A stretch of DNA of 64,000 nucleotides from Isurus oxyrinchus (taxonomy: Eukaryota). Each line of letters starts with the position of its first letter. Within the stretch, counting starts at the first letter, position 1. The stretch spans positions 163,184,001 to 163,248,000 of the forward strand of contig JANJGN010000009.1 of the NCBI GenBank assembly GCA_026770705.1, given 5' to 3'. A model generated the notes under the pieces. That model searched no databases, had not been told where the DNA came from, and saw only the letters and a list, made by a program, of their open reading frames with translations. A program made the position numbers and the translations under genes. This document shows positions 1,445-27,027 of this stretch, in pieces.

Positions 1445-2800
1445 TGTCAATTCATTAAATCCTGAACGCCAGCGCATGTGCTGTTACTTCCACCAGTGAC
1501 ATCATTTAAATATGTATTTTATACTTGAACTGCTTTCTATTACGAGGGTGGTGCCTCTTTGACCATTAACAGAAATCCTCTTATTTCAGCTTTCATTCCT
1601 ATCATTTTAACACTTCAGCTGAAGTTGACAAAATAGAAAAGGTTTGCATTTCTGTTGTGCTTTTCCCGACCAACGTACATCTCCAAGTGCTTTCCAGCCA
1701 ATGAAGTACTTTTGAAGTGTATTCACTGTTGTAATGTAGGAAATGCAGCAGCCAATTTCTGCACAGAAAGCTCCCACAAACACCAATGCCAAACTGGCCA
1801 CATAACCTGCTTTTTTTATGCCGATTGAGGTTATGTCCCAGGACACCAGGGATAATTCCTCTGCTCTGCTTTGAAGAGTGCCGTGGGATCTCTTACATCC
1901 ACTTGAACAGGATGATAGGGCCTGTGGGTTTAATGTCTCATCCAAAATATCGCACCTATGACGGTGTAGCACTCGCTCAGTGCAGCTCTGGATTGTCAGC
2001 TTTGATTTTTGCCGTTATAGTGGGTGAACCTTGTGATTCAGAGAGGAGAGTAGCACCTAGTGAGCCACAACTTGCAGTTAAAGAGATCAATGCGTGACAA
2101 AGTAAATGTAATGTTGGTCCTATTCCAGCCTGACTGGAGTGTTGTTTCATTACTGTCTGGGAATTATAATATTAAAGTTATTGTTGAGCTGGCATCTAAA
2201 TTTTGCTTCCAAATATAACTTTTGAGCTTTTGGCTCTTGGTCATTAATCTATTAATGTTTAGAATTATAGCAGCGCTGTTTTAATAAGCATTCCCACAAT
2301 GTACTCTGGTAACTGAATAGTTAAAATGGAAAGTTTCTTGCATTGTTTCTTTGAAAATATTTTTGGTGTGAGGAAGCAAAGAACATTTACCATCCACTTT
2401 GACTGTGTGTGAAAATGCTTCAAACAAAGCAAGCAAGAGATGACTGGTGTAAAAGGAGGACAGGGGGTGTGAGGAGAGGGCAGTGGGAGTCACAGAGAGG
2501 GAGATTGTGACTGGGCTGCTTGTGTTAATACCAAAATGATTTAGCCGCGCAGTGTGGTTCCACCCAACATTTCAGCCTTTTAGCCTTTTCCTGACAGCCG
2601 AGTTTGCTGGAATCTATGCCTTCCGTATGGATTCACAGGCACGGCAGCTACATGTGTAGCAAGGGCCCCCTCTGCAGTTGCAGCATCATAAACTCAGCCT
2701 TTTAGATATTGCCCTCCTGTACTGGAATCACAAGCAGTTTCTCTGCATCTACCTGTATTATATCGAATGCCTGAATAATTTTAAATAGCTCAGTCACCTC
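1445..2800 (+). ncRNA. Putative long hairpin 1 of the unit RNA (shown for unit 1; repeated in each full unit)
   Basis: Colinear helices found by eye: 1527-1553/2707-2740, 1554-1593/2426-2459, 1603-1613/2407-2417 (10/11 paired), 1703-1717/2349-2363 (14/15), 1836-1845/2154-2162 and 1893-1898/2106-2111. G-U pairs favour the + strand. Confidence 0.65.
1640..2075 (-). mobile_element. Deu-domain SINE (SacSINE1/AmnSINE1-like), one per unit
   Basis: Reverse-strand Deu core (CCCAGGACACCAGGGATAATTCCTCTGCTC...GGTTTAATGTCTCATCC...GCACTCGCTCAGT) with a tRNA-like head remnant near 2025-2070. Recognised from memory of the consensus. Confidence 0.75.
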
Positions 2801-3300
2801 ATTCCAAGAGTTTTCCAAGCTCAAGGGAATACAAGTCACATTTACGCAATCAACCTTTTCAATTTAACTCTTTAAGCCCTGCAATCATTCTGGTGAATTG
2901 ACACTCTTCTCTTTCTAAAGGCAATATTTCTACCTGAGGCTCGATGTCCAAAGGTGGATACAGAATTCCAGAACAGATCCCTCCAAGACTCTGTACAACT
3001 GAAATATAATTTCCTCATTTTGGAATTTCAATCCCCTTAAAGTAAAAGCCAATGTTCCATGAACCTTTTAGATTATTTCCTGTACCTATGCAGTGGAGTT
3101 TAGCGATGGGTGTATATGGACAAACTAATCACTTTGCTCCTCCACAACATCTAGCCTCTCACCATGAAGAAATTATTCTGATGTGTCCTTCTCAGATCCA
3201 AAGTTGATGAACTCACCACTTCCCTACATTGACCTCCATCTGCCATAGATTTGTCCATTCACTTTGTCTATGTCCTTGTGTAACTTCCGGTTTCAATCCC
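2745..3300 (-). mobile_element. Old CR1 LINE ORF2 fragment (antisense), one per unit
   Basis: Reverse complement of the CR1 'WQMEFNV.KCE' and 'RMIPGLKGL...LGLYSLE' segments; see the paralogous ORFs 19775-19975 and 41577-41825. Confidence 0.8.
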
Positions 3301-3389
3301 AATTTACAATCTAGATCAGGAGGATGATCCTCTCTGTAATGTTATTGCCTTTGATGTGAAGATGATAATTCACTCAAGTGGCACCAGTT

Positions 3390-3960
3390 TTTTTTTATTA
3401 TTCATTCACGGAATGTGGGCTTCGCTGGCTGGGCCAGCATTTATTGCTCATCCCTAGTTGCCCTTGAGAAGGCGGTAGTGAGCTGCCTTCTTGCACCGCT
3501 GCAATCCATGTGGTGTAGGTACACCCACAGCGCTGTTAGGGAGGGAGTTCCAGGATTTTGACCCAGCGACAGTGAAGGAACGGCCGATATATTTCCAAGT
3601 CAGAATGGTGAGTGACTTGGAGGGGAACTTCCTGGTGGTGGTGTTCCCATCTATCTGCTGCCTTTGTGATTCTAGATGGTAGTGGTCGTGGGTTTGGAAG
3701 GTGCTGTTGAAGGAGCCTTGGTGAATTTCTGCAATGCATCTTGTACATGGTACACGCTGCTGCTACTGCGCATTGGAGTTGGAGGGAGTGAATATTTGTG
3801 GATGTGATGCCAATCCGTTGGGCTGCTTTGTCCTGGACTGTCAAGCTTCTTGTGTGAGCTGCACTTATCCAGGGAAGTGGGTAGTATTCCATCACACTCT
3901 TGATTTTTGCCTTGTAGATGGTGGACAGTCTTTGGGGAGTCAGGAGGTGGGTTACTCGTC
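3390..3960 (-). mobile_element. 3' end of a non-LTR retrotransposon (LINE), antisense, one per unit
   Basis: Minus-strand ORFs read STIYKAKIKSVMEYSPLAWMSAAP...QDKAAHLIG...IHSLHLRR.VAA...YKMHC...SWNSLP, a typical LINE ORF2 C-terminus. The A-rich tail is seen as a T-run at ~3388. Confidence 0.8.
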
Positions 3961-4059
3961 AATTCCTATGGCAACTCGAACTCCTCAATTAGAAATGAAA
4001 CACTTGTCATATGGAATTCTGCAACTGAGATTGAGGCTGTTTGGCCAGGGAGTGCTTCA

Positions 4060-4345
4060 CATAAACTCAGCTGACACCTCAACACCATACAAAGATCGTG
4101 CTCTATTGCCAGATGAAATGTTATCTGAGAGTCCAAACTGTTTGTTCAGGTACCAAATGTGGCCATGACGCTACTTGAGGAACAGCAGAGGAATTGGCTC
4201 AGTGTCCTGGCTGAAACAGGTTATCTCGTCATTTAGCTCCTTTGCTGTTTTTTCTGTGTCCATATTGTCTGTCATTTTTGCCTAAATAATAACAGTAACA
4301 CTTCAAAACTAACCTCTTGAGTGTAGCTTGAAATGTCTTTAAGAC
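4060..4345 (+). mobile_element. Highly decayed Deu-domain SINE (sense), one per unit
   Basis: Residual similarity to the Deu core: GCTGACAC...CAGATGAAATGTTA...CCATGACGCTACTTGAGGAACAGCAGAGGAATT...GTGTCCTGG...GGTTATCTCGTCATT...ACACTTCAAAA. Confidence 0.6.
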
Positions 4346-4499
4346 ACGAAAATCGTGAAACTATAGAAACCATCCTTGAAACCTCAAGTGAAACTTTCAT
4401 TTTGCTGTGGACTTATCCTAGACTGAAACTACTGATCGCTTCTCGTTAGATGCAGCTACAACAAGGATTAACTAACCCAATGCCATCTAGAATCTTGAC

Positions 4500-5455
4500 C
4501 TGGCAGATGGAGTTTAATGTGGGAAAATGTGGAATTGTCCATTTTGGCAGGAAGATTAAAAAAGAAGAAAATTATCTGAATGGTGAGAGATTACAGAGCT
4601 CTGAGATGCAGAGGGAGCTGGGTGTTTTAGCGCATGAATTCTAAAAGGTTAGTATGCAGCGACAGCAAGTAATTAGGAAAGTTAATAGAATGTTTACAAG
4701 AATGTTGACAGAGTTAGAAAAGTGTAGCTACAAGGAGAGATTGGATAGGTTGGGGTGATTTTCCTTAGAACAAACAAGGCTGAGAGGTGACTTGATTGAC
4801 AGAATTATGATGGGAATAGATAGAGTGGACAGGATAAAGTTGTTTCCCTTGGTGGAGAATTCTAGAACCAGAGAACATAGATTCAAGATAAGTGGCAGAA
4901 GGTGTAGGGGGGACATGAGGATGAACTTTTTTACGCAGAGGGTAGTGGGTGTCTGGAATTCGGTGCCCAAGTTGGTGGTAGAGGCAGAAATTTTAAACTC
5001 TTTTAAAAAGTACCTGGAACTGCACCTAAAGTGCTGTAAGCTGCAGGGCTATGGGCCGGGTGCAGGAAGGTGGGATTAGAAAAGGCACCTGTGTGTCCTC
5101 GGGCTGGCATGGACAAGATGCGCCGAATGGCCTCCTTCTGTGCTGTAACATTTCCATTGTTCTATGGTTCTAAAGTTATTGTTTATTTTGAGGGGAATTG
5201 AGTACAAAAGTAGGGAGGTTATGCTTCAGTTATACAGGCCGTTGGTGAGACCCACATTTGGAGTACTTTATACCGTATTGGTTTCCTTATTTAAGGAAGG
5301 ATGTAAATGCATTAGAAGCAGTTCACAGGTCTACTAGGCTAATACCTGGAATGGACAGGTTGTCTTATGAGGAAATGTTGGACAGGTTTGGCTTGTATCG
5401 ACTGGAATTTAGAAGAGTAAGAGGCGACTTGATTGAAACATGAGGGATATTGAAA
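4500..5455 (+). mobile_element. CR1 LINE ORF2 fragment with a nested CR1 3' end (~4690-5170), one per unit
   Basis: WQMEFNVGKC.IVHFGRK; LGLFSLEQRRLRGDLI...FFTQRVVGVWNSLP; a 3' UTR ending TTCTATGGTTCTA; then the host CR1 resumes (EYKSREVML.LY...LEFRRVRGDLIET). Confidence 0.9.
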
Positions 5456-5924
5456 GGGTGTCAATTCATTAAATCCTGAACGCCAGCGCATGTGCAGTTA
5501 CTTCCAGCAGTGACATTATTTAAATATGTATTTTATACTTGAACTGCTTTCTATTACGAGGGTGGTGCCTCTTTGACCATTAACAGAAATCCTCTTATTT
5601 CAGCTTTCTTTCCTATTATTTTAACACTTCAGATGAAGTTGACAAAATAGAAAAGGCTTGCATTTCTATCATGCTTTTCCCGACTAATGGACATCTCCAA
5701 GTGCTTTACAGCCAACAAAGTACTTTTGAAGTGTATTCACTGTTGTAATGTCGTAAATGCAGCAGCCAATTTCTGCACAGCCAGCTCCCACAAACACCAA
5801 TGCGACACTGGCCGCATAACCTGCTTTTTTTATGCCGATTGAGGATATGTCCCAGGACACCAGGGATAATTCCTCTGCTCTGCTTTGAAGAGTGCCCTGG
5901 GATCTCTTACACCCACTCGAACAG

Positions 5925-6062
5925 GACAGTTCTGCTGAAGGGTCATGAGGACTCGAAAGATCAACTCATTTCTTCTCCGCCGATGCTGCCAGATCTGCTG
6001 AGTTTTTCCAGGTAATTCCCTTTTTGTAATGGATTTCCAGCATCCACAGTTTTTTGTTTTTA
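5925..6062 (+). mobile_element. Short Penelope 3'/pseudo-LTR insertion in unit 2
   Basis: Absent from the other units. Contains CTGCTGAAGGGTCATGAGGACTCGAAA...GATGCTGCCAGATCTGCTGAG and is flanked by an imperfect duplication (ACTCGAACAGGA / ACTCAAACATGA). Confidence 0.85.
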
Positions 6063-9000
6063 ACTCAAACATGATGATAAAACCTGAGGGTTTAATGTCT
6101 CATCCAAAATATGGCACCTTTGACGGTGTAGCACTCGCTCAGTGCAGCCCTGGATTGTCAGCTTTGATTTTTGCCGTTATAGTGGGTGAACATTGTGAAT
6201 CAGAGAGGAGAGTAGCACCAATTGAGCCACAACTTGCAGTTAAAAAGATCAATGCGTGACAAAGTAAATGTAATGTTGGACCTACTCCAGCCTGACTGGA
6301 GTGTTGTTTCATTACTGTCTGGGAATTACAATATTAAAGATATTGTTCAGCTGGTGTCTAAATTTTGCTTCCAAATATAACTTTTGAGCTTTTGGCTCTT
6401 GGTCATTAATATATTAATGTTTAGAATTATAGCAGAGCTGTTTTAATAAGCATTCCCACAATGTACTCTGGTAACTGACTTGTTAAAATGTAAAGTTTCT
6501 AGCATTGATTTTTTAAAAATACTTTTGGTGTGAGGAAGCAAAGTACATTTACCATCCACTTTGACTGTGTGTGAAAATGCTTCAAACAAAGCAAGCAAGA
6601 GATGACTGGTGTAAAAGGAGGACAGAGGGTGTGAGGGGAGGGCAGTGGGAGTCATGGAGACGGAGATTGAGACTGGGCTGCTTGTGTTAATACCAGAATG
6701 ATTTAGCCCCACAGTGTGGTTCCACCCAACATTTCAGCCTTTTAGCCTTTTCCTGACAGCCGAGTTTGCTGGAATCCATGCCTTCCGTATGGAATCACAG
6801 GCACGGCAGCTACATGTGTAGCAAGGGCCCCCTCTGCAGTTGCAGCATCATAAACTCAGCCTTTTAGATCTTGCCCTCCTGTACTGGAATCACAAGCAGT
6901 TTCTCTGCGTCTACCTGTATTACATCGAATCGCTGAATAATTTTAAATAGCTCAGTCAACTCAGCCATTTACTTACTAAGCTCAAGGGAATACAAGCCAC
7001 ATTTATGCAATCAAGATTCTGAATTTAACCCTTTAAGCCCTGGAATCATTCTGATGAATTTTTACTCTTCTCCTTCCAAAGGCAACATTCCTACCTGAGG
7101 CTCGATGTCCAAACGTGGATACAGAATTCCAGAGCAGATCCCTCCAAGACTCTGTACAACTGAAATATCAATTCCTCATTCTGGAATTTCAATCCCCTTG
7201 AAGCAAAAGCCAATGTTCCATGAACCTTTTAGATTATTTCCTGTACCTGGGCAGTGGCGTTTAGCGATGGACAAACTAATCACTTTGCTCCTCCACAACA
7301 TCTAGCCTCTACCAGTAAGAAATCATTCTGACTTGTCCTTCTCAAAGTTGATGAACTCACCACTTCCCTACATTGAGCTCCATCTGCCATAGATTTGTCC
7401 ATTCATTTTGTCTATGTCCTTGTGTAACTTCCGGTTTCCATCCCAATTTACAATCTAGATCAGGAGGATGATCCTCTCTGTAATGTTATTGCCTTTGCTG
7501 TGAAGATGATAATTCACTCCAGCGGCACCAGTTTTTTTTTATTATTCATTCACGGGATGTGGGCTTCGTTGGCTGGGCCATCATTTTATTGCCCATCCCT
7601 AGCTACCCTTGAGAAGGTGGTGGTGAGCTGCCTTTTTGAACCGCTGCAGTCCCTGTGGTGTAGGTACACCCACAGTGCTGTTAGGAATGGAGTTCCAGGA
7701 TTTTGACCCAGCGACAGTGAAGGAACGGCCAATATATTTCCAAGTCAGGATGGTGAGTGACTTGGAGGGGAACCTCCAGGTGGTGGTGTTCCCACCTATC
7801 TGCTGCCCTTGTAATTCTAGATGGTAGTGGTCGTGGGTTTGAAATGTGCTGTTGAAGGAACCTTGGTGAATTCCTGCAGTGCATCTTGTAGATGGTACAT
7901 GCTGCTGCTACTGCGCATCGGAGGTGGAGGGAGTGAATATTTATGGATGTGATGCCAACTAAGTGGGCTGCTTTGTCCTGGACTGTCAAGCTTCTTGTGG
8001 GAGCTGCACTCATCCAGGCAAGTGGGCAGTGGTCCATCACTCTCTTGATTTTTGCCTTGAGGATGGTGGACAGGCTTTGGGGAGTCAGGAGGTGGGTTAC
8101 TCGTCAATTCCTACGGCAACTCCTACTCCTCAATTAGAAATGAAACACTTGTCATATGGAATTCTGCAACTGAGATTGAGACTGTTTGGCCAGGGAGTGC
8201 TTCACATAAACTCAGCTGACACCTCAACACCATACAGAGATCGTGCTCTATTGCCAGATGAAATGTTATCTGAGAGTCCAAACTGTTTGTTCAGGTACCA
8301 AATGTGGCCATGACGCTACTTGAGGAACAGCAGAGGAATTGGCTCAGTGTCCTGGCTGAAACAGGTTATCTCGTCATTTAGCTCCTTTGCTGTTTTTTCT
8401 GTGTCCATATTGTCTGTCATTTTTGCCTAAATGATAACAGTAACACTTCAAAACTAACCTCTTGAGTGTAGCTTGAAATGTCTTTAAGACAAGAAATGCG
8501 TGAAACTATAGAAACCTTCCTTGAAACCTAAAGTGAAACTTTCATTTAGCTGTGGACTTATTCTAGACTGAAACTACTGATCGCTTCTCAATCGATGCAG
8601 CTGCAACAAGGATTAACTAACCCAATGCCATCTAGAATCTTGACCTGGCAGATGGAGTATAATGTGGGAAAATGTGGAATTGCAGTGCTCTGAGATGCAG
8701 AGGGAGCTGGGTGTTTTAGCGCATGAATTCTAAAAGGTTAGTATGCAGCGACAGCAAGTAATTAGGAAAGCTAGTAGAATGTTTAAAGGAATGTTGCCAG
8801 GGTTAGAAAAGTGTAGCTACGAGGAGAGATCGGATAGGTTGGGGTTATTTTCCTTAGAACAAAGAAGGCTGAGAGGTGATTTGATTGACAAAATTATGAG
8901 GGGAATAGATTGAGTGGACAGGATAAAGTTGTTTCCCTTGGTGGAGAATTCTAGAGGCAGGGGGCATAGATTCAAGATAAGTGGCAGAAGGTGTAGGGGG

Positions 9001-12000
9001 GACATGAGGAAGAACTTTTTTAAGCAGAGGGTAGTGGGTGTCTGGAATTCGCTGCCCAAGTTGGTGGTAGAGGCAGAAACTTTAAACTCTTTTTAAAAAG
9101 TACCTGGATCTGCACCTAAAGTGCTGTAAGCTGCTGGGCTATGGGCCGGGTGCAGGAAGGTGGGATTAGAAAGGGCACCTGGGTATCCTCGGGCTGGCAT
9201 GGACAAGATGTGCCGAATGGCCTCCTTCTGTGCTGTAACCTTTCTAAGATTCTATGGTTCTAATGTTATTGTTTATTTTGAGGGAAATTGAGTACAAAAG
9301 TAGGGAGGTTATGCTTCAGTTATACAGGGCGTTGGTGAGACCCACATTTGGAGTACTTTATACCGTATTGGTTTCCTTATTTGGGGAGGGATGTAAATGC
9401 GTTGGAAGCAGTTCACAGGTCTACTAGGCTAATAGCTGGAATGGACAGGTTGTCTTGAGAGGAAATGTTGGACAGGTTTGGATTGTATCCACTGGAATTT
9501 AGATGTGTAAGAGGCGACTTGATTGAAACATGAGGGGTATTGAAAGGGTGTCAATTCATTAAATCCTGAACGTCAGCGCATGTGCAGTTACTTCCAGCAG
9601 TGACATCGTTTAAATATGTATTTTATACTTGAACTGCTTTCTATTACGAGGGTGATGCCTCTTTGACCATTAACAGAAATCCTCTTATTTCAGCTTTCTT
9701 TCCTATTATTTTAACACTTCAGCTGAAGTTGACAAAATAGAAAAGGCTTGCATTTCTATCATGCTTTTCCCAACTAATGGACATCTCCAAGTGCTTTCCA
9801 GCCAATGAAGTACTTTTGAAGTGTATTCACTGTTGTAATGTAGGAAATGCAGCAGCCAATTTCTGCACAGCCAGCTCCCACAAACACTAATGCGACACTG
9901 GCCACATAACCTGCTTTTTTTATGCTGATTGAGGATATGTCCCAGGACACCAGGGATAATTCCTCTGCTCTGCTTTGAAGAGTACCCTGGGATCTCTTAC
10001 ATCCACTCGAACAGGATGATGGGGCCTGAGGGTTTAATGTCTCATCCAAAATATCGCAGCTATGATGGTGTAGGACTCGCTCAGTGCAGCCCTGTTTTGT
10101 CAGCTTTGATTTTAGCTGTTATAGTGGGTGAACCTTGTGAATCAGAGAGGAGAGTAGCACCAATTGAGCCACAACTTGTAGTTAAAGAGATCAATGCGTG
10201 ACAAAGTAAATGTAATGTTGGTCCTATTCCAGCCTGACTGGAGTGTTGTTTCATTACTGTCTGGGAATTATAATATTAAAGTTATTGTTGAGCTGGTGTT
10301 TAAATTTTGCTTCCAAATATAACTTTTGACCTTTTGGCTCTTGGTCATTAATATATTAATGTTTAGAATTATAGCAGAGCTGTTTTAATAAGCATTCCCA
10401 CAATGTACTCTGGTAACTGAATTGTTAAAATGGAAAGTGGAAAATTGACTTTTTAAAAATACTTTTGGTGTGAGGAAGCAAAGTACATTTACCATCCACT
10501 TTGACTGTGTGTGAAAATGCTTCAAACAAAGCAAGCAAGAGATGACTGGTTTAAAAGGAGGACGGGGGTGTGAGGGGAGGGCAGTGGGAGTCATGGAGAG
10601 GGAGATTGAGACTGGGCTGCTTGTGTTAATACCAGAATGATTTAGCCCCACAGTGTGGTTCCACCCAACAGTTCAGCCTTTTAGCCTTTTCCTGACAGCC
10701 GAGTTTGCTGGAATCTATGCCTTCCGTATGGATTCACAGGCACGGCAGCTACATGTGTAGCAAGGGCCCCCTCTGCAGTTGCAGCATCATAAACTCAGCC
10801 TTTTAGATATTGCCCTCCTGTACTGGAATCACAAGCAGTTTCTCTGAATATACCTGTATTACATCGAATCGCTGAATCAACTCACCCATGAGCTTTCCAA
10901 GCTCAAGGGAAGACAAACCGCATTTACACAATCAAGCTTCAGAATTTAACCCTTTAAACCCTGGAATCATTCTGGTGAATTTTTACTCTTCTCCTTCCAA
11001 AGGCAACATTCCTACCTGAGGCTTGATGTCCAAAGCTGGATACAGAATTCCAGAGCAGATCCCTCCGAGACTCTGTACAACTGAAATATCATTTCCGCAT
11101 TCTGGAATTTCAATCCCCTTAAAGTAAAAGCCAATGTTCCATGAAACTTTTAGATTATTTCCTGTACCTGGGCAGTGGCGTTTAGCGATGGGTGTATATG
11201 GACAAACTAGTCACTTTGCTCCTCTACAACATCTAGCCTCTCACCATTCTGATGTGTCCTTCACAGATTCAAAGTTGATGAACTCACCACTTCCCTACAT
11301 TGAGCTCCATCTGCCATAGATTTCTCCATTCATTTTGTCGATGTCCTTGTGTAACTTCCGGTTTCCATCCCAATTTACAATCTAAATCAGGAGGATGATC
11401 CTCTCTGTAATTTATTGCCTTTGCTGTGAAGATGATAATTCACTCCCGCGGCACCAGTTTTTTTATATTATTCATTCACGGGAAGTGGGCTTCGCTGGCT
11501 GGGCCCAGCATTTATTGCCCATCCCTTGTTGCCCTTGAGAAGGTGGTGGTGAGCTGTCTCCGTGCACTGCTGCAGTCCATATGGTGTAGGTACACCCACA
11601 GTGCTATTAGGAAGGGAGTTCCAGGATTTTGACCCAGCGACAGTGAAGGAACGGTGATATATTTCCAAGTCAGGATGGTGAGTGACTTGGAGAGGAACCT
11701 CCAGGTGGTGGTGTTCCCATCTATCTGCTGCCCTTGTCTTCTAGATGGTAGTGGTCATGGGTTTGAAATGTGCTGTTGAAGGAGCCTTGGTGAATACCAA
11801 CTGTGCATCTTGTAGATGGTACACAATGCTGCTACTGCACATCAGAGGTGCAGGGAGTAAGTATTTGTGGATGTGATGTCAATCAAGTGGGCTGCTTTGT
11901 CCTGGACTGTCAAGCTTCTTGTGGGAGCTGTACTCATCCAGGCAAGTGGGTAGAATTCCAACACACTCTTGATTTTTGCCTTGTAGATGGTGGACAGGCT

Positions 12001-14200
12001 TTGGGGAGTCAGGAGGTGGGTTACTCGTCAATTCCTACGGCAACTCCTACTCCTCAATTAGAAATGAAACACTTGTCATATGGAATTCTGCAACCGAGAT
12101 TGAGGCTGTTTGGCCAGGGAGTGCTTCACATAAACTCAGCTGACACCTCAACACCATACAGAGATCGTGCTCTGTTGCCAGATGAAATGTTATCTGAGAG
12201 TCGAAACGGTTTGTTCAGGTACCAAATGTGGCCATGACGCTACTTGAGGAACAGCAGAGGAATTGGCTCAGTGTCCTGGCTGAAACAGGTTATCTCGTCA
12301 TTTAGCTCCTTTGCTGTTTTTTCTGTGTCCATATTGTCTGTTATTTTTGCCAAAATAATAACAGTAACACTTCAAAACTAGCCTCTTGGGTGTAGCTTGA
12401 AATGTCTTAAAGACAAGAAAAGCATGAAACTATAGAAACCATCCTTGAAAACTAAAGTGAAACTTTCATTTAGCTGTGGACTTATCCTAGACTGATACTA
12501 CTGATCGCTTCTCGATCGATGCAGCTACAACAAGGATTAACAAGCCCAATGCCATCTAGAATCTTGACCTGGCAGATGGAGTTTAATGTGGGAAAATGTG
12601 GAATTGTCCATTTTGGCAGGAAGATTAAAAAAGAAGAAAATTATCTGAATGGTGAGAGATTGCAGAGCTCTGAGATGCAGAGGGAGCTGGGTGTTTTAGC
12701 GCATGAATTCTAAAAGGTTAGTATGCAGCGACAGCAAGTAATTAGGAAAGCTAATAGAATGTTTACAAGAATGTAGCCAGGGTTAGACAAGTGTAGCTAC
12801 AAGGAGAGATTGGATAGGTTGGGGTTGTTTTCCTTGGAACAAAGAAGGCTGAGAGGTGACTTGATTGAGGTGTACAAAATTATGAGGGGAACAGATAGAG
12901 TGGACAGGATAAAGTTGTTTCCCTTGGTGCAGAATTGTAGAAACAGGGGGCATAGGTTCAAGAGAAGTGGCAGAAGGTGTAGGGGGGATATGGGTAAGAA
13001 CTTTTTTATGCAGAGGGTAGTGGGTATCTTGAATTCGCAGCCCAAGTTGGTGGTAGAGGCAGAAACTCTAAACTCTATTAAAAATTACCTGGATCTGCAC
13101 CTAAAGTGATGTAAGCTGCTGGGCTATGGGCTGGGTGCAGGAAGGTGGGATTAGAAAGGACACCTGGGTGTCATCGGGCTGGCATGGACAAGGTGGGCGA
13201 ATGGCCTCCTTCTGTGCTGTAACCTTTCTAAGATTCTATGGTTCTAAAGTTATTGTTTATTTTGAGGGAAATTGAGTACAAAAGTAGGGAGGTTATGCTT
13301 CAGTTATACAGGGCGTTGGTGAGACCCACATTTGGAGTACTTTGTACCGTATTGGGTTCCTTATTTAAGGAAGGATGTAAATGCCTTGGAAGCAGTTCAC
13401 AGGTCTACTAGGCTAATACCTGGAATGGACAGGTTGTCTTATGAGGAAATGTTGGACAAGTTTGGCTTGTATCCACTGGAATTTAGAAGAGTAAGAGGCG
13501 ACTTGATTGAAACATGAGGGACATTGAAAGGGTGACAATTCATTAAATCCTGAACGCCAGTGCATGTGCAGTTACTTCCAGCAGTGACATCGTTTAAATA
13601 TGTATTTTATACTTGAACTGCTTTCTATTACGAGGGTGGTGCCTCTTTGACCATTAACAGAAATCCTCTTATTTCAGCATTCTTTCCTATCATTTTAACA
13701 CTTCAGCTGAAGTTGACAAAATAGAAAAGGATTGCATTTCTATCATGCTTTTCCCGACTAATGGACATCTCCAAGTGCTTTACAGCCAACAAAGTACTTT
13801 TGAAGTGTATTCACTGTTGTAATGTAGGAAATGCAGCAGCCAATTTCTGCACAGCCAGCTCCCACAAACACCAATGCGACACTGGCCACACAACCTGCTT
13901 TTTTTATGCCGATTGAGGATATGTCCCAGGACACCAGGGATAATTCCTCTGCTCTGCTTTGAAGAGTGCCCTGGGATCTCTTACATCCACTCGAACAGGA
14001 TGATGGGGCCTGAGGGTTTAATGTCTCATCCAGAATATGAGACCTATGACGGTGCAGCACTCGCTCAGTGCAGCCCTGGATTGTCAGTTTTGATCTTTGC
14101 CGTTATAGTGGGTGAACCTTGTGAATCAGAGAGGAGAGTAGCACCAATTGAGACACAACTTGTAGTTAAAGAGCTCAATGCATGACAAATTAAATATAAT

Positions 14201-15027
14201 TGTAAAAAAAACTGCACACAAGCCAGGAGAGAAACAATTTCGTTGCTCCCAATGTGGTCTCCTCTACATTGGAGAGACCAAACGTAAACTGGGCGACCGC
14301 TTTGCAGAACACTTGCGGTCTGTCCGCAAGAATGACCCAAACCTCCCTGTTGCTTGCCATTTTAACACTCCACCCTGCTCTCTTGCCCACATGTCTATCC
14401 TTGGCTTGCTGCATTGTTCCAGTGAAGCCCAACGCAAACTGGAGGAACAACACCTCATCTTCCGACTAGGCACCTTACAGCCTTCCGGTCTGAATATTGA
14501 ATTCAACAACTTTAGGTCTTGAACTCCCTCCTCCATCCCCACCCCCTTTCTGTTTCTTCCCCCTTCCTTTTCTTTTTTCCAAAAATTTATATAGATTTTT
14601 CTTTTCCCACCTATTTCCATTATTTTTAAATCTTTTGTGCCCCCCACTACCACTAGAGCTGTACCTTGAGTGCCCTATCATCCATTCTTAATTAGCACAT
14701 TTCTTTAGGTAATATCACCAACTTCAACACCTCTGTGTTCTTTTGTTCTTTTGTCTGTGAAATCTTTTGATTACCTGCTCCTATCACTGCATGCTTGTTC
14801 CTACAACCACACCACCCACCTCAACTTCTCTTCCCAACAAACCCCCCCCCCACCCCGCTCCCACCCCTACCCCCACCCCCTGCACCCTAAACCTGCTTAT
14901 ATTTCACCCCTCCCCTTGGATTCACCTAGTTCTGTTGAAGGGTCATGAGGACTTGAAACGTCAACTTTTTTCTTCTCCGCCGATGCTGCCAGACCTGCTG
15001 AGTTTTTCCAGGTAATTCAGTTTTTGT
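14201..15027 (+). mobile_element. 5'-truncated Penelope-like element (GIY-YIG C-terminus plus pseudo-LTR) in unit 4
   Basis: CSQCGLLYIGETKRKLGDRFAEH...LEEQHLIFRLGTLQPSGLN; hammerhead-like motif at 14929-14966; flanked by a duplicated AAA(G/T)TAAAT(G/A)TAAT. Confidence 0.92.
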
Positions 15028-18000
15028 AAAGTAAATATAATTTGGGTCCTATTCCAGCCTGACTGGAGTGTTGTTTCATTACTGTCTGGGAATCACAATA
15101 TTAAAGTTATTGTTGAGCTGGTGTCTAAATTTTGCTTCCAAGTATAACTTTTGACCTTTGGCGCTTCGTCATTAATATATTAATGTTTAGAATTAGAGCA
15201 GAGCTGTTTTAATAAGCATTCCCACAATGTACTCTGGTAACTGAATTGTTAAAATGGAAAGTTTCTAGCATTGACTTTTTAAAAATACTTTTGGTGTGAG
15301 GAAGCAAAGTACATTTACCATCCACTTTGACTGTGTGTGAAAATGCTCCAAACAAAGCAAGCAAGAGATGACTGGTGTAAAAGGAGGACAGGGGGTGTGA
15401 GGGGAGGGCAGTGGGAGTCATGGAGAGGGAGATTGAGACTGGGTTGCTTGTGTTAATACCAAAATGATAGAGCCCCACAATGTGGTTCCACCCAACATTT
15501 CAGCCTTTTAGCCTTTTCCTGACAGCCGAGTTTGCTGGAATCTATGCCTTCCGTATGGATTCACAGGCACGGCAGCTACATGTGTAGCAAGGGCCCCCTC
15601 TGCAGTTGCAGCATCATAAACTCAGCCTTTTAGATATTGCCCTCCTGTACTGGAATCACAAGCAGTTTCTCTGCATCTGCCTGTATTACATCGAATCCCT
15701 GAATAATTTTAAATAGCTCAGTCAACTCACCCATGAACCTTCCAAGATCAAGGGAATACAAGCCACATTTAAACAATCAAGCTTCAGAATTTAACCCTTT
15801 AAACCCTGGAATCATTCTGGTGAATTGACACTCTTCTCCTTCCAAAGGCAACATTCCTACCTGAGGCTTGATGTCCAAAGCTGGATACAGAATTCCAGAG
15901 CAGATCCCTCCGAGACTCTGTACAACTGAAATATCATTTCCGCATTCTGGAATTTCAATCCCCTTAAAGTAAAAGCCAATGTTCCATGAACCTTTTAGAT
16001 TATTTCCTGTACCTGGGCAGTGGCATTGAGCGATGGGTGTATACGGACAAACTAGTCACTTTGCTCCTCCACAACATCTAGCCTCTCACCAGTAAGAAAT
16101 CATTCTGACTTGACCTTCTCAAAGTTGATGAACTCACCACTTCCCTACATTGAGCTCCATCTGCCATAGATTTGTCCATTCATTTTGTCTATGTCCTTGT
16201 GTAACTTCTGGTTTCCATCCAAATTTACAATCTAGATCAGGAGGATGATCCTCTCTGTAATGTTATTGCCTTTGCTGTGAAGATGATAATTCACTCAAGT
16301 GCCACCAGTTTTTTTTATTATTCATTCACGGGATGTGGGCTTCGTTGGCTGGACCATCATTTTATTGCCCATCCCTAGCTACCCTTGAGAAGGTGGTGGT
16401 GAGCTGCCTTCTTGAACCGCTGCAGTCCATGTGGTGTAGGTACATCCACAGTGCTGTTAGGAATGGAGTTCCAGGATTTTGACCCAGTGACAGTGAAGGA
16501 AAAGCGATATATTTCCAAGTCAGGATGGTGAGTGACTTGGAGGGGAACATTCAGGTGGTGGTGTTCCCACCTATCTGCTGCCCATGCCCTTTTAGATGGT
16601 AGTGGTAGTGGATTTGAAAGGTGCTGTTGAAGGAGCCTTGGTGAATTCCTGCAGTGCATCTTGTAGATGGTACATGCTGCTGCTACTGTGCGTCGGAAGT
16701 GGAGGGAGTTAATATTTGTGGATGTGATGCCAGTCAAGTGGGCTGCTTTGTCCTGGACTGTCAAGCTTCTTGTGGGAGCTGCACTGATCCAGGCAAGTGG
16801 GGAGTATTCCATCACACTCTTGATTTTTACCTTGTAGATGGTGGACAGGCTTTGGGGAGTCAGGAGGTGGGTTACTCGTCAATTCCTACAGCAACTCCTA
16901 CTCCTCAATTAGAAATGAAACACTTGTCATATGGAATTCTGCAACTGAGATTGAGGCTGTTTGGCCAGGGAGTGCTTCACATAAACTCAGCTGACACCTC
17001 AACACCATACAGAGATCGTGCTCTATTGCCAGATGAAATGTTATCTGAGAGTCCAAACTGTTTGTTCAGGTACCAAATGTGGCCATGACGCTACTTGAGG
17101 AACAGCAGAGGAATTGGCTCAGTGTCCTGGCTGAAACAGGTTATCTCGTCATTTAGCTCCTTTGCTGTTTTTTCTGTGTCCATATTGTCTGTCATTTTTG
17201 CCAAAATAATAACAATAACACTTCAAAACTAACCTCTTGGGTGGAGCTTGAAATGTCTTTAAGCCAAGAAAAGCGTGAAACTATAGAAACCTTCCTTGAA
17301 GCCTAAAGTGAAACTTTCATTTAGCTGTGGACTTATCCTAGACTGATACTACTGATCGCTTCTCGATCGATGCAGCTACAACAAGGATTAACTAACCCAA
17401 TGCCATCTAGAATCTTGACCTGGCAAATGGAGTTTAATGTGGGAAAATGTGGAATTGTCCATTTTGGCAGGAAGAATAAAAAAGAAGAAAATGATCTGAA
17501 TGGTGAGAGATTACAGAGCTCTGAGATGCAGAGGGAGCTGGGTGTTTTAGCGCATGAATTCTGAAAGGTTAGTATGCAGCGACAGCAAGTAATTAGAAAA
17601 GTTAATAGAATGTTTACAAGAATGTAGCCAGGGTTAGAAAAGTGTAGCTACAAGGAGAGATTGGATAGGTTGGGGTTATTTTCCTTAGAACAAAGAAAGC
17701 TGAGAGGTGATTTGATTGACAAAATTATGATGGGAATAGATTGAGTGGACAGGATAAAGTTGTTTCCTTGGTGGAGAATTCTAGAACCAGGAGACATAGA
17801 TTCAAGATAAGTGGCAGAAGCTGGAGGGGGGACAGGAGGAGCAACTTTTTTACGCAGAGAGTTGTGGGTGTCTGGAATTCGCTGCCCAAGTTGGTGGTAG
17901 AGGCAGAAACTCTAAACTCTTTTAAAAAACACCTGGATCTGCACCTAAAGTGCTGTAAACTGCAGGGCTATGGGCCGGTTGCAGGAAGGTGGGATTAGAA

Positions 18001-21000
18001 AAGGCAACTGGGTGTCCTCCGCCTGTCATGGACAAGATGTGCCGAATGGCCTCCTTCTGTGCTGTAACCTTTCTAAGGTTCTATGGTTCTGATGATTTTC
18101 TTTATTTTGAGGGAATTGAGTACAGGGAGGTTATGCTTCAGTTATACAGGCCGTTGGTGAGACCCACATTTGGAGTACATTGTACCGTATTGGTTTCCTT
18201 ATTTAAGGAAGGATGTAAATGCATTGGAAGCAATTCACTGGTCAACTAGGCTAATACCTGGAATGGACAGGTTGTCTTATGAGGAAATGTTGGAGAGGTT
18301 TGGCTTGTATCCACTGGAATTTAGAAGAGTAAGAGGCAACTTGATTGAAACATGAGGGATATTGAAAGGGTGTCAATTCATTAAATCCCGAACGCCAGCG
18401 CATGTGCAGTTTCTTCCAGCAGTGACAACGTTTAAATATGTATTTTATACTTGAACTGCTTTCTATTACGAGGGTGGTGCCTCTTTGACCATTAACAGAA
18501 ATCCTCTTATTTCAGCTTTCTTTCCTATCATTTTAACACTTCAGCTGAAGTTGACAAAATAGAAAAGGCTTGCATTTCTATGGTGCTTTTCCTGACTAAT
18601 GGACATCTGCAAGTGCTTTCCAGCCAATGAAGTACTTTTGAAGTGTATTCACTGTTGTAATGTAGAAAATGCAGCAGCCAATTTCTGCACAGCCAGCTCC
18701 CACAAACACCAATGTGACACTGGCCACATAACCTGCTTTTTTTATGCCAATTGAAGATATGTCCCAGGACACCAGGGATAATTCCTCTGCTCTGCTTTGA
18801 AGAGTACCCTGGGATCTCTTACATCCACTCGAACAGGATGATGGGGCCTGAGGGTTTAATGTCTCATCCAGAATATGGCACCTATGACGGTGTAGCACTC
18901 GCTCAGTGCAGCTCTGGATTGTCAGCTTTGATTTTTGCTGTTATAGTGGGCGAACATTGTGAATCAGAGAGGAGAGTAGCACCAATTGAGCCACAACTTG
19001 TAGTTAAAGAGATCAATGCGTGACAAAGTAAATGTAATGTTGGTCCTATTCCAGCCTGACTGGAGTGTTGTTTCATTACTGTCTGGGAATTATAATATTA
19101 AAGTTATTGTTGAGCTGGTGTCTAAATTTTGCTTCCAAATATAACTTTTGACCTTTTGACTCATGGTCATTAATCTATTAATGTTTAGAATTATAGCAGC
19201 GCTGTTTTAATAAGCATTCCCACAATGTACTCTGGTAATTGAATTGTTAAAATGGAAAGTTTCTTGCATTGATTTTTTAAAAATATTTTTGGTGTGAGGA
19301 AGCAAAGTACATTTACCATCCACTTTGACTGTGTGTGAAAATGCTCCAAACAAAGCAAGCAAGAGATGACTGGTGTAAAAGGAGGACAGGGGGTGTGAGG
19401 AGAGGGCAGTGGGAGTCATGGAGAGGGAGATTGAGACTGGGCTGCTTGTGTTAATACCAAAATGATTTAGCCCCACAGTGTGGTTCCACCCAACATTTCA
19501 GCCTTTTAGCCTTTTCCTGACAGCCGAGTTTGCTGGAATCTATGCCTTCCGTATGGATTCACAGGCACGGCAGCTACATGTGTAGCAAGGGCCCCCTCTG
19601 CAGTTGCAGCATCATAAACTCAGCCTTTTAGATATTGCCCTCCTGTACTGGAATCACAAGCAGTTTCTCTGCATCTGCCTGTATTACATCGAATCGCTGA
19701 ATAATTTTAAGTAGCTCAGTCAACTCACCCATGAACTTTCCAAGATCAAGGGAATACAAGCCACGTTTACGCAATCAAGCTTCAGAATTTAACCCTTTAA
19801 ACCCTGGAATCATGCTGGTGAATTGACACTCTTCTCCTTCCAAAGGCAACATTCCTGCCTGAGGCTCGATGTCCAAAGCTGGATACAGAATTCCAGAGCA
19901 GATCCCTCCGAGACTGTACAACTGAAATATCATTTCCGCATTCTGGAATTTCAATCCCCTTAAAGTAAAAGCCAATGTTCCATGAACCTTTTAGATTATT
20001 TCCTGTACCTGGGCAGTGGCATTGAACGATGGGTGTATATGGACAAACTAGTCACTTTGCTCCTCCACAACATCTAGCCTCTACCAGTAAGAAATCATTC
20101 TGACTTGTCCTTCTCAAAGTTGATGAACTCACCACTTCCCTACATTGAACTCCATCTGCCATAGATTTGTCCATTCATTTTGCCTATTTCTTTGTGTAAC
20201 TTCCGGTTTCCATCCAAATTTACAATCTAGATCAGGAGGATGATCCTCTCTGTAATGTTATTGCCTTTGCTGTGAAGATGATAATTCACTCCAGCGGCAC
20301 CAGTTTTTTTTATTATTCATTCACGGGATGTGGGCTTCGTTGGCTGGGCCATCATTTTATTGCCCATCCCTAGCTACCCTTGAGAAGGTGGTGGTGAGCT
20401 GCCTTCTTGAACCGCTGCAGTCCATGTGGTGTAGGTACATCCACAGTGCTGTTAGGAATGGAGTTCCAGGATTTTGACCCAGTGACAGTGAAGGAAAAGC
20501 GATATATTTCCAAGTCAGGATGGTGAGTGACTTGGAGGGGAACTTCCTGGTGGTGGTGTTCCCACCTATCTGCTGCCCATGCCTTTTTAGATGGTAGTGG
20601 TAGTGGATTTGAAAGGTGCTGTTGAAGGAGCCTTGGTGAATTCCTGCAGTGCATCTTGTAGATGGTACATGCTGCTGCTACTGTGCGTCGGAAGTGGAGA
20701 GAGTGAATATTTGTGGATGTGATGCCAATCAAGTGGGCTGCTTTGTCCTAGACTGTCAAGCTTCTCGTGTGAGCTGCACTGATCCAGGCAAGTGGGGAGT
20801 ATTCCATCACACTCTTGATTTTTGCCTTGTAGATGGTGGACAGGCTTTGGGGAGTCAGGAGGTGGGTTACTCGTCAATTCCTACAGCAACTCCTACTCCT
20901 CAATTAGAAATGAAACACTTGTCATATGGAATTCTGCAACTGAGATTGAGGCTGTTTGGCCAGGGAGTGCTTCACATAAACTCAGCTGACACCTCAACAC

Positions 21001-24000
21001 CATACAGAGATCGTGCTCTATTGCCAGATGAAATGTTATCTGAGAGTCCAAACTGTTTGTTCAGGTACCAAATGTGGCCATGACGCTACTTGAGGAACAG
21101 CAGAGGAATTGGCTCAGTGTCCTGGCTGAAACAGGTTATCTCGTCATTTAGCTCCTTTGCTGTTTTTTCTGTGTCCATATTGTCTGTCATTTTTGCCAAA
21201 ATAATAACAATAACACTTCAAAACTAGCCTCTTGGGTGGAGCTTGAAATGTCTTTAAGCCAAGAAAAGCATGAAACTATAGAAACATTCCTTGAAGCCTT
21301 AAGTGAAACTTTCATTTAGCTGTGGACTTATCCTAGACTGAAACTACTGATCGCTTCTCGATCGATGCAGCTACAACAAGGATTAACTAACCCAATGCCA
21401 TCTAGAATCTTGACCTGGCAGATGGAGTTTAATGTGGGAAAATGTGGAATTGTCCATTTTGGCAGGAAGAATAAAAAAGAAGAAAATGATCTAAATGGTG
21501 AGAGATTACAGAGCTCTGAGATGCAGAGGGAGCTGGGTGTTTTAGCGCATGAATTCTGAAAGGTTAGTATGCAGCGACAGCAAGTAATTAGAAAAGCTAA
21601 TAGAATGTTTACAAGAATGTAGCCAGGGTTAGAAAAGTGTAGCTATGAGGAGAGATTGGATAGGTTGGGGTTATTTTCCTTAGAACAAAGAAAGCTGAGA
21701 GGTGATTTGATTGACAAAATTATGATGGGAATAGATAGAGTGGACGGGATAAAGTTGTTTCCCTTGGTGGAGAATTCTAGAACCAGGAGACATAGATTCA
21801 AGATAAGTGGCAGAAGCTGTAGGGGGGACAGGAGGAGCAACTTTTTTACGCAGAGAGTGTGGGTGTCTGGAATTCGCTGCCCAAGTTGGTGGTAGAGGCA
21901 GAAACTCTGAACTCTTTTAAAAAGTACCTGGATCTGCCCCTAAAGTGCTGTAAGCTGCAGGGCTATGGGCCGGGTGCAGGAAGGTGGGATTAGAAAAGGC
22001 AACTGGGTGTCCTCGGGCTGTCATGGACAAGATGTGCCGAATGACCTCCTTCGGTGCTGTAACCTTTCTAAGGTTCTATGGTTCTGATGATTTTCTTTAT
22101 TTTGAGGGAATTGAGTACAGGGAGGTTATGCTTCAGTTATACAGGCCGTTGGTGAGACCCACATTTGGAGTACATTGTACCGTATTGGTTTCCTTATTTG
22201 GGGAAGGATGTAAATGCGTTGGAAGCAATTCACTGGTCAACTAGGCTAATACCTGGAATGGACAGGTTGTCTTATGATGAAATGTTGGACAGGTTTGGTT
22301 TGTATCCACTGGAATTTAGAAGAGTAAGAGGCGACTTGATTGAAACATGAGGGATATTGAAAGGATGTCAATTTATTAAATCCCGAACGCCAGCGCATGT
22401 GCAGTTACTTCCAGCAGTGACAACGTTTAAATATGTATTTTATACTTGAACTGCTTTCTATTACGAGGGTGGTGCCTCTTTGACCATTAACAGAAATCCT
22501 CTTATTTCAGCTTTCTTTCCTATCATTTTAACACTTCAGCTGAAGTTGACAAAATAGAAAAGGCTTGCATTTCTATTGTGCTTTTCCTGACTAATGGACA
22601 TCTGCAAGTGCTTTCCAGCCAATGAAGTACTTTTGAAGTGTATTCACTGTTGTAACGTAGGAAATGCAGCAGCCAATTTCTGCACAGCCAGCTCCCACAA
22701 ACACCAATGTGACACTGGTTACATAACCTGCTTTTTTTATGCCGATTGAGGATATGTCCCAGGACACCAGGGATAATTCCTCTGCTCTGCTTTGAAGAGT
22801 GCCCTGGGATCTCTTACATCCACTCGAACAGGATGATGGGGCCTGAGGGTTTAATGTCTCATCCAGAATATGGCACCTATGACGGTGTTGCACTCACTCA
22901 GTGCAGCCCTGGATTGTCAGCTTTGATTTTTGCCGTTATAGTGGGTGAACATTGTGAATCAGAGAGGAGAGTAGCACCAATTGAGCCACAACTTGTAGTT
23001 AAAGAGATCAATGCGTGACAAAGTAAATGTAATGTTGGTCCTATTCCAGCCTGACTGGAGTGTTGTTTCATTACTGTCTGGGAATTATAATATTAAAGTT
23101 ATTGTTGAGCTGGTGTCTAAATTTTGCTTCCAAATATAACTTTTGACCTTTTGGCTCTTGGTCATTAATCTATTAATGTTTAGAATTATAGCAGCGCTGT
23201 TTTAATAAGCATTCCCACAATGTACTCTGGTAACTGAATTGTTAAAATGGAAAGTTTCTTGCATTGATTTTTTAAAAATATTTTTGGTGTGAGGAAGCAA
23301 AGTACATTTACCATCCACTTTGACTGTGTGTGAAAATGCTCCAAACAAAGCAAGCAAGAGATGACTGGTGTAAAAGGAGGACAGGGGGTGTGAGGAGAGG
23401 GCAGTGGGAGTCATGGAGAGGGAGATTGAGACTGGGCTGCTTGTGTTAATACCAGAATGATTTAGCCCCACAGTGTGGTTCCACCCAACATTTCAGCCTT
23501 TTAGCTTTTTCCTGACAGCCGAGTTTGCTGGAATCTATGCCTTCCGTATGGATTCACAGGCACGGCAGCTACATGTGTAGCAAGGGCCCCCTCTGCAGTT
23601 GCAGCATCATAAACTCAGCCTTTTAGATATTGCCCTCCTGTACTGGAATCACAAGCAGTTTCTCTGCATCTGCCTGTATTACATCGAATCGCTGAATAAT
23701 TTTAAATAGCTCAGTCAACTCACCCATGAACTTTCCAAGATCAAGGGAATACAAGCCACGTTTACGCAATCAAGCTTCAGAATTTAACCCTTTAAACCCT
23801 GGAATCATGCTGGTGAATTGACACTCTTCTCCTTCCAAAGGCAACATTCCTACCTGAGGCTCGATGTCCAAAGCTAGATACAGAATTCCAGAGCAGATCC
23901 CTCCGAGACTGTACAACTGAAATATCATTTCCGCATTCTGGAATTTCAATCCCCTTAAAGTAAAAGCCAATGTTCCATGAACCTTTTAGATTATTTCCTG

Positions 24001-27000: not shown

Positions 27001-27027
27001 ATCAATGCATGACAAAGTAAATGTAAT

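What the first reader, a model, noticed from the sequence alone, without database searches (positions are those of the whole stretch)
2575..2745. Near-invariant branched domain extruded from hairpin 1
This ~170-nt stretch, with no TE origin that I recognise, is nearly identical in all 10 full units. It has a 10-bp hairpin GAATCTATGC-cttcc-GTATGGATTC (2610-2634; two G-U pairs on +; unit 2 converts one U-G to C-G but gains a mismatch). The hairpin can be extended by GTTTG/CAGGC and GCCG/CGGC to ~22 bp. It also has GCTAC-atgt-GTAGC, CTGCA-gt-TGCAG and possible GAGTTT/AAACTC closure. An ACA lies 15 nt after the upper stem (H/ACA-like spacing), but I see no H box. Candidates are a pre-miRNA-like hairpin, a protein-binding or processing signal, or an unknown ribozyme.
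Basis: partly seen in the sequence, partly recalled or inferred. Interest (0 to 1): 0.78.

Follow-up and report, generated by a model that had tools for sequence, protein, structure and literature searches.

The report
Conserved transposon end in intron array
This stretch is the worn end of an old jumping gene, copied ten times inside an intron of a shark immune-receptor gene and kept about four times more uniform than the DNA around it, likely because it became part of a predicted, still untested, repeated non-coding RNA unit whose better microRNA candidate is a second conserved hairpin 1.4 kb away.

Summary
The conservation is real; the reading is mostly not. 2575-2745 has 8 changes across 10 units where 32 are expected, none shared between units. 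It does have a mobile-element origin: 2575-2699 is the right end of an old dispersed repeat, and 2700-2745 is the DNA it landed in (empty sites in two paralogues). The GAGTTT/AAACTC 'closure' is that element's decayed inverted repeat and does not form here. The 19-bp hairpin folds but is ordinary, and the whole domain folds no better than shuffles. No Rfam, H/ACA, hammerhead-core, rRNA-guide or coding signal. New context: the array fills an intron of a minus-strand pIgR/CD300-like gene, so the hairpin lies antisense. Each unit has a second conserved island (4138-4272) with a rare 16-pair stack. Simulations reject neutral drift and symmetric conversion; they fit purifying selection best, but a one-donor conversion sweep is not excluded. 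Best guess (0.3): a C19MC-like repeated non-coding unit on the + strand, with this island as an acceptor-led module and island 2 as the pri-miRNA. Expression is not shown.

The parts
2575..2745 (.). Island 1, low-diversity stretch (unit 1). Other copies start at 6737, 10676, 15503, 19501, 23496, 27668, 32669, 36706 and about 41454
1457..2699 (+). Old non-autonomous dispersed repeat, class not determined; left edge approximate; interrupted by a younger insert at about 1616-2063 (SINE label recalled, from no call)
   Evidence: 62-64% to L001, L069, L070 over 2064-2699, plus L001 and L069 matches in 1504-1615; family ends
2596..2699 (+). Right terminus of the element, bounded by its decayed 11-15-nt inverted repeat (2596-2606 and 2689-2699)
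   Evidence: closure probability 0.0 in the window copy
2597..2645 (+). 19-bp predicted hairpin with the 10-bp upper stem 2610-2634
2647..2660 (+). 5-bp predicted hairpin GCTAC/GTAGC
2575..2598 (+). Pyrimidine tract and AG: splice-acceptor-like site, 9.1 bits, rank 5 of 282 + strand AGs of the unit, intact in 10 of 10 units
   Evidence: matrix recalled
2700..2745 (.). Target DNA right of the insertion, start of an old remnant (CR1-like label recalled) that runs on to 3389
   Evidence: empty sites in L047 and L049
4138..4272 (+). Island 2: second low-diversity stretch; predicted long hairpin, 16 stacked pairs 4177-4192/4238-4253
   Evidence: 5 events against 26.6 expected; folds; ten copies
2572..2689 (-). 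Imperfect C-box-like heptamer (2689-2683) and D-box-like tetramer (2575-2572); rival reading
1445..44334 (.). Tandem array of ten ~4-kb units plus one partial unit (30531-31601) that lacks both islands
47087..47407 (-). Ig V-set exon of the pIgR/CD300-like host gene; next exon found (C2-type Ig) is at L011 2359-2024, left of the window

Best explanation
2575-2745 is the decayed right end of an old dispersed mobile element plus 46 nt of the DNA it inserted into, held nearly unchanged in ten tandem copies inside an intron of a minus-strand immune-receptor gene, likely by purifying selection as a fixed module of a predicted + strand non-coding transcript whose likely product comes from the long hairpin at 4138-4272. 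Shown: the element origin, the empty sites, the low diversity, the second island, the position between two exons of the receptor gene. Inferred: (1) selection rather than a conversion sweep; (2) a + strand, antisense transcript through the array; (3) island 1 would act as an acceptor-led repeated exon or processing module, with local hairpins inherited and re-registered from the element; (4) island 2 would be cut by Microprocessor, so that ten units would give a tenfold dose, as in C19MC.
For: Diversity pattern: 8 and 5 events in the two islands, all single-unit, while 280 of 745 variable columns of the unit are shared. Neutral, symmetric hot-spot and identity-dependent conversion models gave this pattern in 0 of 300-400 runs each; selection gave it in 27-30% and a one-donor sweep in 4-17%. 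5 of 5 island CpGs are intact in all units against 8 of 38 elsewhere (P 0.0013). Strand: the two best-folding of 65 + strand windows of the unit are the two islands (z -2.1 and -1.6; ranks 2 and 7 of 130 over both strands). Island 2 has a 38-pair stem walk with 16 stacked pairs; 7 of 1500 random flank windows reach 16. 6 of 7 differences from paralogue L049 in its 5' arm keep or gain a + strand pair. In island 1, 3 of 4 stem changes keep pairing on +. The left edge of island 1 is a pyrimidine tract and AG scoring like the real V-exon acceptor (9.1 against 8.9 bits), intact in 10 of 10 units, including the unit with the 8-nt deletion. Architecture precedent: C19MC (PMC2691840, passages).
Against: No promoter or transcript is shown. 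Island 1 has no usable donor near its right edge (-0.8 to -4.6 bits) and no AATAAA/ATTAAA nearby, so 'exon' is incomplete. 3 of the 10 strongest + strand acceptors are intact in all units, so survival is not special. Non-coding exon bodies are not expected to lose three quarters of their mutations (general knowledge). The island 1 fold is ordinary; 16 of 27 dispersed copies fold the same stretch more stably. Over 2633-2700 the window copy is as diverged as other copies (0.776 mean identity, mid-rank of 26), so there was no constraint before amplification. Island 2 has a 45-nt branched loop, z is only -1.6, and 1 of its 2 stem changes breaks a pair. Island edges and strand ranks were read after seeing the data. 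The array is a recombination patchwork, and the simulations are simple.
Confidence: 0.3

Rival explanations
1. No function. One copy's sequence recently swept through all ten units by one-directional gene conversion at two fixed spots, for example by erosion of a recombination hot spot, leaving young, near-identical tracts.
For: Linkage between informative sites falls to background by about 400 nt. The older paralogues L047/L049 share a ~1-kb tract at 92-99% inside 73-88% flanks, on the homologue of the DNA between the islands. Sweep models reproduce the island in 4-17% of runs. A/T-to-G/C excess against outgroups: 15 to 5 in island 2, pooled 20/6 against 62/56 in flanks, P 0.028. No constraint before amplification.
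Against: Needs two sweeps of similar age with sharp edges (1-3 events per 25 nt inside, 3-14 just outside). Symmetric conversion is rejected. The G/C excess is absent against L070 (12/12), and the pooled count mixes polarised and unpolarised sites. Does not explain the long hairpin in island 2.
Confidence: 0.25
2. The islands are DNA elements: transposon-derived intronic enhancers or silencers of the receptor gene, multiplied ten times.
For: Intronic position in an immune-receptor gene; sharp edges; CpGs kept; constraint independent of frame and spread over paired and unpaired bases. ETS-like, E-box and half-CRE words can be read in the sequence (motifs recalled, not tested against chance).
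Against: Ten redundant copies should weaken selection per copy; no motif test or chromatin data; does not explain the + strand folding.
Confidence: 0.2
3. Each island holds an orphan box C/D RNA on the minus (host) strand, giving a SNORD115/116-like array or sno-lncRNAs.
For: The only 2 C/D-like box pairs on the minus strand of unit 1 lie one in each island; 6% of 2000 random windows hold such a pair. This is the transcribed strand of the host. No variant hits a box.
Against: Both C boxes have a mismatch; terminal stems are weak or absent by eye; conservation runs 40-56 nt 5' of the C boxes; guides pair 8-10 nt with this genome's 18S/28S, like other CTGA sites (7-11); Rfam gives chance hits only; the scan rule was set after seeing the boxes; animals mostly follow one snoRNA per intron (PMC11028025, passages).
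Confidence: 0.07
4. Assembly polishing erased copy differences in two read-length stretches.
For: Island lengths (171 and 135 nt) are close to short-read length; how the assembly was made is not known.
Against: Single-unit variants remain inside both islands; copies differ by about 5%, enough for unique mapping.
Confidence: 0.07
5. The 2597-2645 hairpin is itself a small-RNA precursor or part of a ribozyme.
For: The 61-nt stretch folds at -23 kcal/mol, z -2.7 (window chosen afterwards); random divergence from L001 or L070 reaches this in 0.1-1.4% of trials.
Against: 19 pairs and no basal stem; no Rfam match; no CTGANGA or GAAAY core in 2501-2800 on either strand; L070 folds the same stretch at -23.3 in another register, so the tendency is inherited.
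Confidence: 0.05
6. The islands are protein-coding exons, of the host (minus) or of a short + strand ORF.
For: Acceptor-like sites exist; one + frame has 3 synonymous and 2 non-synonymous changes.
Against: That frame has a frameshift in unit 9; the other three island 1 frames tested have 0 synonymous and 4-6 non-synonymous changes; no convincing match of unit 1 to 37 host homologues; no Pfam match; no codon periodicity against L049.
Confidence: 0.04

Closest known systems
C19MC primate microRNA cluster (PMC2691840; abstract and passages read)
   Same: Young lineage-specific tandem units rich in mobile-element pieces; each unit would hold one hairpin and one repeated acceptor-led segment.
   Different: C19MC units are 400-700 nt with a 123-nt exon that has both splice sites and shown expression. 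Here units are 4 kb, lie antisense in an intron of a coding gene, have no donor, and expression is not shown.
Helentron-associated HINE / DINE-1 elements (PMC4067079; passages read)
   Same: Non-coding repeat with fixed ends, an inverted repeat near one end, a palindrome near the other, insertion into a T run with no clear target duplication at this site.
   Different: No 12-15-nt subterminal inverted repeats joining the two ends were seen; the inverted repeat spans 105-125 nt at one end instead of 3-22 nt; many right flanks do not start with TT.
DIRS-type elements with an internal complementary region (PMC8969392; passages read)
   Same: An internal stretch complementary to the 3' terminus; no long target duplication seen.
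   Different: No inverted terminal repeats and no coding partner found; complementarity to the 5' end is only partial, by eye.
SNORD115/SNORD116 arrays and sno-lncRNAs (PMC11028025; passages read)
   Same: Tandem intronic units with short islands, conversion between copies, box-like motifs on the host strand.
   Different: Imperfect C boxes, weak terminal stems, no flanking exons shown.
Interlocus gene conversion in segmental duplications (PMC3790853, PMC3924837; passages read)
   Same: Patchwork ancestry and local identity tracts among tandem copies.
   Different: Symmetric conversion predicts shared variants; the islands have none in 13 events.

Membership tests
Canonical pri-/pre-miRNA (island 1) | Unbranched stem of about 33-35 pairs with basal stem (recalled) | tested here: not met
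   19 pairs, unpaired flanks
Canonical pri-/pre-miRNA (island 2) | Long stem with basal segment and simple apical loop | tested here: inconclusive
   38-pair walk with 16 stacked pairs on +, but a 45-nt structured loop
Canonical pri-/pre-miRNA (both islands) | 20-24-nt reads from both arms with 2-nt overhangs | not testable with these tools
   only assembled contigs were offered
Known Rfam family | Score above gathering cut-off | tested here: not met
   0 in the window; best E 0.8-6.6 near the islands
H/ACA snoRNA | Hairpin - ANANNA - hairpin - ACA | tested here: not met
   no ANANNA on + in 2560-2760; on - only at 2744 and 2720, before any hairpin
Box C/D snoRNA | C box RUGAUGA and D box CUGA at the ends | tested here: inconclusive
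   one-mismatch C and exact D on minus in both islands
Box C/D snoRNA | Guide of 10 or more nt to rRNA | tested here: not met
   8-10 nt, within the 7-11 range of all 16 CTGA sites; snRNAs not tested
Hammerhead ribozyme | CUGANGA and GAAA core | tested here: not met
Other self-cleaving ribozymes | Self-cleavage | not testable with these tools
   no Rfam match; needs an assay
Interspersed mobile element | Dispersed copies with a shared sharp end | tested here: met
   33 matches outside the array; homology stops at the same base
Interspersed mobile element | Empty site in a paralogue | tested here: met
   L047 and L049 match both flanks and lack the insert; left junction approximate
Helentron/HINE | Subterminal inverted repeats at both ends | tested here: not met
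   left and right ends compared by eye
Helentron/HINE | Insertion in TT without target change | tested here: inconclusive
   T run at this site; right flanks elsewhere start mostly with T or A
DIRS | Inverted terminal repeats plus internal complementary region, tyrosine-recombinase partner | tested here: inconclusive
   internal complement of the 3' end present, no terminal repeats, partner not sought
C19MC-like cluster | Repeated exon with acceptor and donor | tested here: not met
   acceptor 9.1 bits, no donor above 0 bits near 2745 in 9 of 10 units
C19MC-like cluster | Pol II host transcript processed by Drosha | not testable with these tools
   needs stranded reads
Protein-coding exon | Synonymous excess, intact frame, homologue | tested here: not met

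The most novel reading that the evidence does not exclude
A young shark microRNA cluster assembled from transposon junctions: an insertion created a long hairpin (island 2), a transposon end supplied a conserved acceptor-led module (island 1), and the 4-kb unit was amplified tenfold antisense inside an inhibitory immune-receptor gene. It would be a C19MC-like invention outside mammals, caught early.
Probability: 0.2. Interest if true: 0.72.

Novelty: new member of a known kind. Interest (0 to 1): 0.42.

Why it matters
If selection is the cause, this is a dated case of non-coding function arising from neutral transposon debris and being amplified: the same bases diverged freely before the array formed and nearly stopped afterwards. 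It names two precise, testable targets in a poorly studied shark pIgR/CD300-like cluster. If a conversion sweep is the cause, it is a clean warning that short near-invariant islands in tandem arrays need not mean function. The branched domain as first described is not a new RNA class.

Tried and rejected
RNA evidence. No listed holder was on record as RNA. Contigs of three guessed-RNA runs (X2, X3, X15) left 2075-2822 uncovered; a wider lay had shown depth 1-3 in bin 2496-2769 and 0-11 in bin 4140-4413, swamped by common repeats. Contigs show presence only, so neither counts for or against expression. One DNA run (X6, about half read) gave a single contig over 2300-2749 at depth 751 that follows the array majority except at 2319, 2347 and 2681; it collapses copies and may be the same species, so it gives no cross-species test. 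No other shark genome could be searched. tRNA scan empty. Pfam on 147 frames (the 140 longest of 824 non-repeat ORFs, one further unit ORF and 6 island frames) gave mobile-element domains and three weak hits, nothing in the islands; the host gene was found by self-comparison instead. RNAalifold on 23 element ends gave no consensus fold; a named structure paired 78% of cells, with 10 two-sided changes against 5.0 in shuffles, a weak signal because rows are related. Island 1 with island 2 pairing: not unusual on + (15% of controls), borderline on - (5%). No long complement of either island in about 245 kb of searched flanking DNA. Linkage across the islands is no lower than elsewhere. L043 did not align in island 2, so it could not polarise changes there (its island 2 counts are not used). 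Bacterial promoter scan irrelevant. Pol III and vault/Y RNA likeness (A-box-like start, T run at 2700-2703) was considered by eye and dropped: no B box, and the T run is target DNA. A resemblance of the element end to a CR1 ORF1 finger and to a CTCF motif is recalled and was not tested. Paper searches found nothing on this locus or repeat (listings only); the library lacks most subscription papers, and Repbase, Dfam, miRBase and MirGeneDB were not available.

Full report
Setting. The window is G000:C9:163184001-163248000 of a 4.98-Gb genome. Bases 1445-44334 are ten ~4-kb units, 91-94% identical to unit 1, plus one partial unit. Self-comparison of the neighbourhood showed an older multi-copy duplicon. 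One of its best-kept pieces, 47407-47087 on the minus strand, is an Ig V-set exon (Pfam PF07686, E 7.6e-10; closest solved relatives pIgR and CD300). All 37 longer homologues returned are from sharks and rays, the closest at 81% (P0009). P0009 maps in order, on the minus strand, to the V exon, a C2-type exon (L011), stalk and transmembrane exons (L012) and cytoplasmic exons (L053), at 71-90%. No other V or C exon was found between the first two. The array therefore lies in a ~65-kb intron of this gene; the splice itself is inferred from homology.

The observation. 8 of 171 columns vary in 2575-2745; pi is 0.0095 against 0.055. Expected events are 32.5; scan-corrected P is 0.0002 with even rates and 0.002-0.045 with regional variation. 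A second island, 4138-4272, has 5 events against 26.6. All 13 island events are confined to one unit, while 280 of 745 variable columns in the unit are shared. 5 of 5 island CpGs survive in all units against 8 of 38 elsewhere.

Origin. The stretch is not TE-free. Searches found 9 dispersed matches among 19 and 33 outside the array among 40 scored of 56 candidates (lower bounds). Copies stop at the same base, window 2699, with unrelated DNA beyond. Three copies match the window for 470-630 nt at 62-64%. Another subfamily has a defined left end and lengths of about 510-890 nt (8 credible right ends among 22 loci; one further match looked spurious). Paralogues L047 and L049 match both flanks and lack the insert, which sits in a T run. 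So 2575-2699 is element and 2700-2745 is target DNA. The family end carries an inverted repeat about 105-125 nt long in span and an inner 8-bp hairpin (68-89% of cells paired in 23 copies). In the window copy both helices are decayed. The class is unresolved: some HINE-like and DIRS-like traits, neither family's defining ends.

Structure. The 10-bp stem, its extension to 19 pairs and GCTAC/GTAGC are predicted with probability 0.63-1.0; CTGCA/TGCAG and the GAGTTT/AAACTC closure are not. The domain folds within shuffle range on both strands. 16 of 27 dispersed copies fold the homologous stretch more stably, and L070 has an equally stable hairpin at the same place in another register. Among units, 0 of 29 pairs covary; 3 of 4 stem changes keep pairing, too few to weigh. 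No Rfam family, H box or hammerhead core.

Why so uniform? Not old constraint: over 2633-2700 the window copy is as diverged as its relatives, and island 2 differs by 28% from L049, more than the 16-21% beside it. Not protein. Conversion is active (linkage decays by about 400 nt; a ~1-kb tract between L047 and L049), but uniform conversion gave such a dip in at most 1 of 150 runs per setting. Symmetric hot spots and identity-dependent conversion never gave a dip without shared variants (0 of 300-400 runs each). With scan-defined edges, selection reproduced the pattern in 27-30% of runs and a one-donor sweep in 4-17%. These are simple models, and the uniform ones under-produce the real regional variance. 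I put constraint of some kind near 0.65, a sweep near 0.25 and artefact near 0.07. A G/C excess against outgroups (20/6 against 62/56, P 0.028, mixed counts; absent against L070) fits biased conversion or structure gain.

What is constrained? Three hints point to RNA on the + strand. The two islands are the best-folding of 65 + strand windows. Island 2 has 16 stacked pairs in a 38-pair stem, reached by 7 of 1500 control windows, and 6 of 7 differences from L049 keep or gain a + strand pair. Island 1 begins with a strong acceptor-like site kept in 10 of 10 units (matrix recalled). This resembles C19MC, where a repeated exon precedes each intronic pre-miRNA (PMC2691840, passages). Against it: no donor or polyadenylation word for island 1, a large loop in island 2, modest z-scores, and no transcript shown. 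One hint points to the minus strand: the only two C/D-like box pairs of the unit fall in the two islands, but boxes are imperfect and there is no rRNA guide. An enhancer reading is untested.

Verdict. Observation partly confirmed. The proposed branched RNA domain is a decayed transposon end, not a new fold. The surviving puzzle is a pair of sharply bounded, recently frozen islands in each unit of an intronic array. Most likely single mechanism: a repeated + strand non-coding unit with island 2 as pri-miRNA and island 1 as a helper module (0.3). Novelty: new member of a known kind. Interest 0.42.

Sources. Papers seen as passages only: PMC4067079, PMC8969392, PMC3924837, PMC3790853, PMC11028025, PMC2691840; no supplements read. 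Other papers: search listings only. The labels SINE, CR1-like, ETS, E-box, CRE, the splice matrices, and the miRNA and snoRNA rules are recalled.

Noticed in passing
window 4138-4272 (+), and the same place in all ten units: Second low-diversity island with a 16-pair stacked stem; best pri-miRNA candidate of the unit. It straddles the edge of an insert (about 4234-4385) that L047/L049 lack.
   Followed up: partly
window 47087-47407 (-); L011, L012, L053; L013-L015, L041, L042, L046, L049-L051, L055: Cluster of pIgR/CD300-like genes with V and C2 Ig exons, transmembrane and tyrosine-motif tails. The window's gene seems to lack the middle C-V-V domains of its closest homologue P0009.
   Followed up: partly
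L047 ~650-1650 against L049 5867-6866: About 1 kb at 92-99% identity inside 73-88% flanks: a conversion tract between paralogous introns 25 kb apart.
   Followed up: partly
L016-L040, L101-L122: Unclassified 0.5-1.1-kb non-coding repeat family with fixed ends and a 105-125-nt inverted-repeat-closed right end; worth classifying.
   Followed up: partly
window 2689-2572 and 4232-4146 (-): The only two C/D-like box pairs on the minus strand of unit 1 fall one in each island.
   Followed up: partly
window 3390-3984: High-copy repeat insert with 183 events against 130 expected; possibly conversion from dispersed copies.
   Followed up: no
L042 2668-4970 and L050 174-1363: Long stretches open in several frames with no Pfam match, probably low-complexity tandem repeats.
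   Followed up: no
L044 2156-2491 (+): SCAN domain match (E 6e-9) near a reverse transcriptase piece, probably a retrotransposon remnant.
   Followed up: no
window 30531-31601: Partial eleventh unit with an internal deletion that removes both islands.
   Followed up: no
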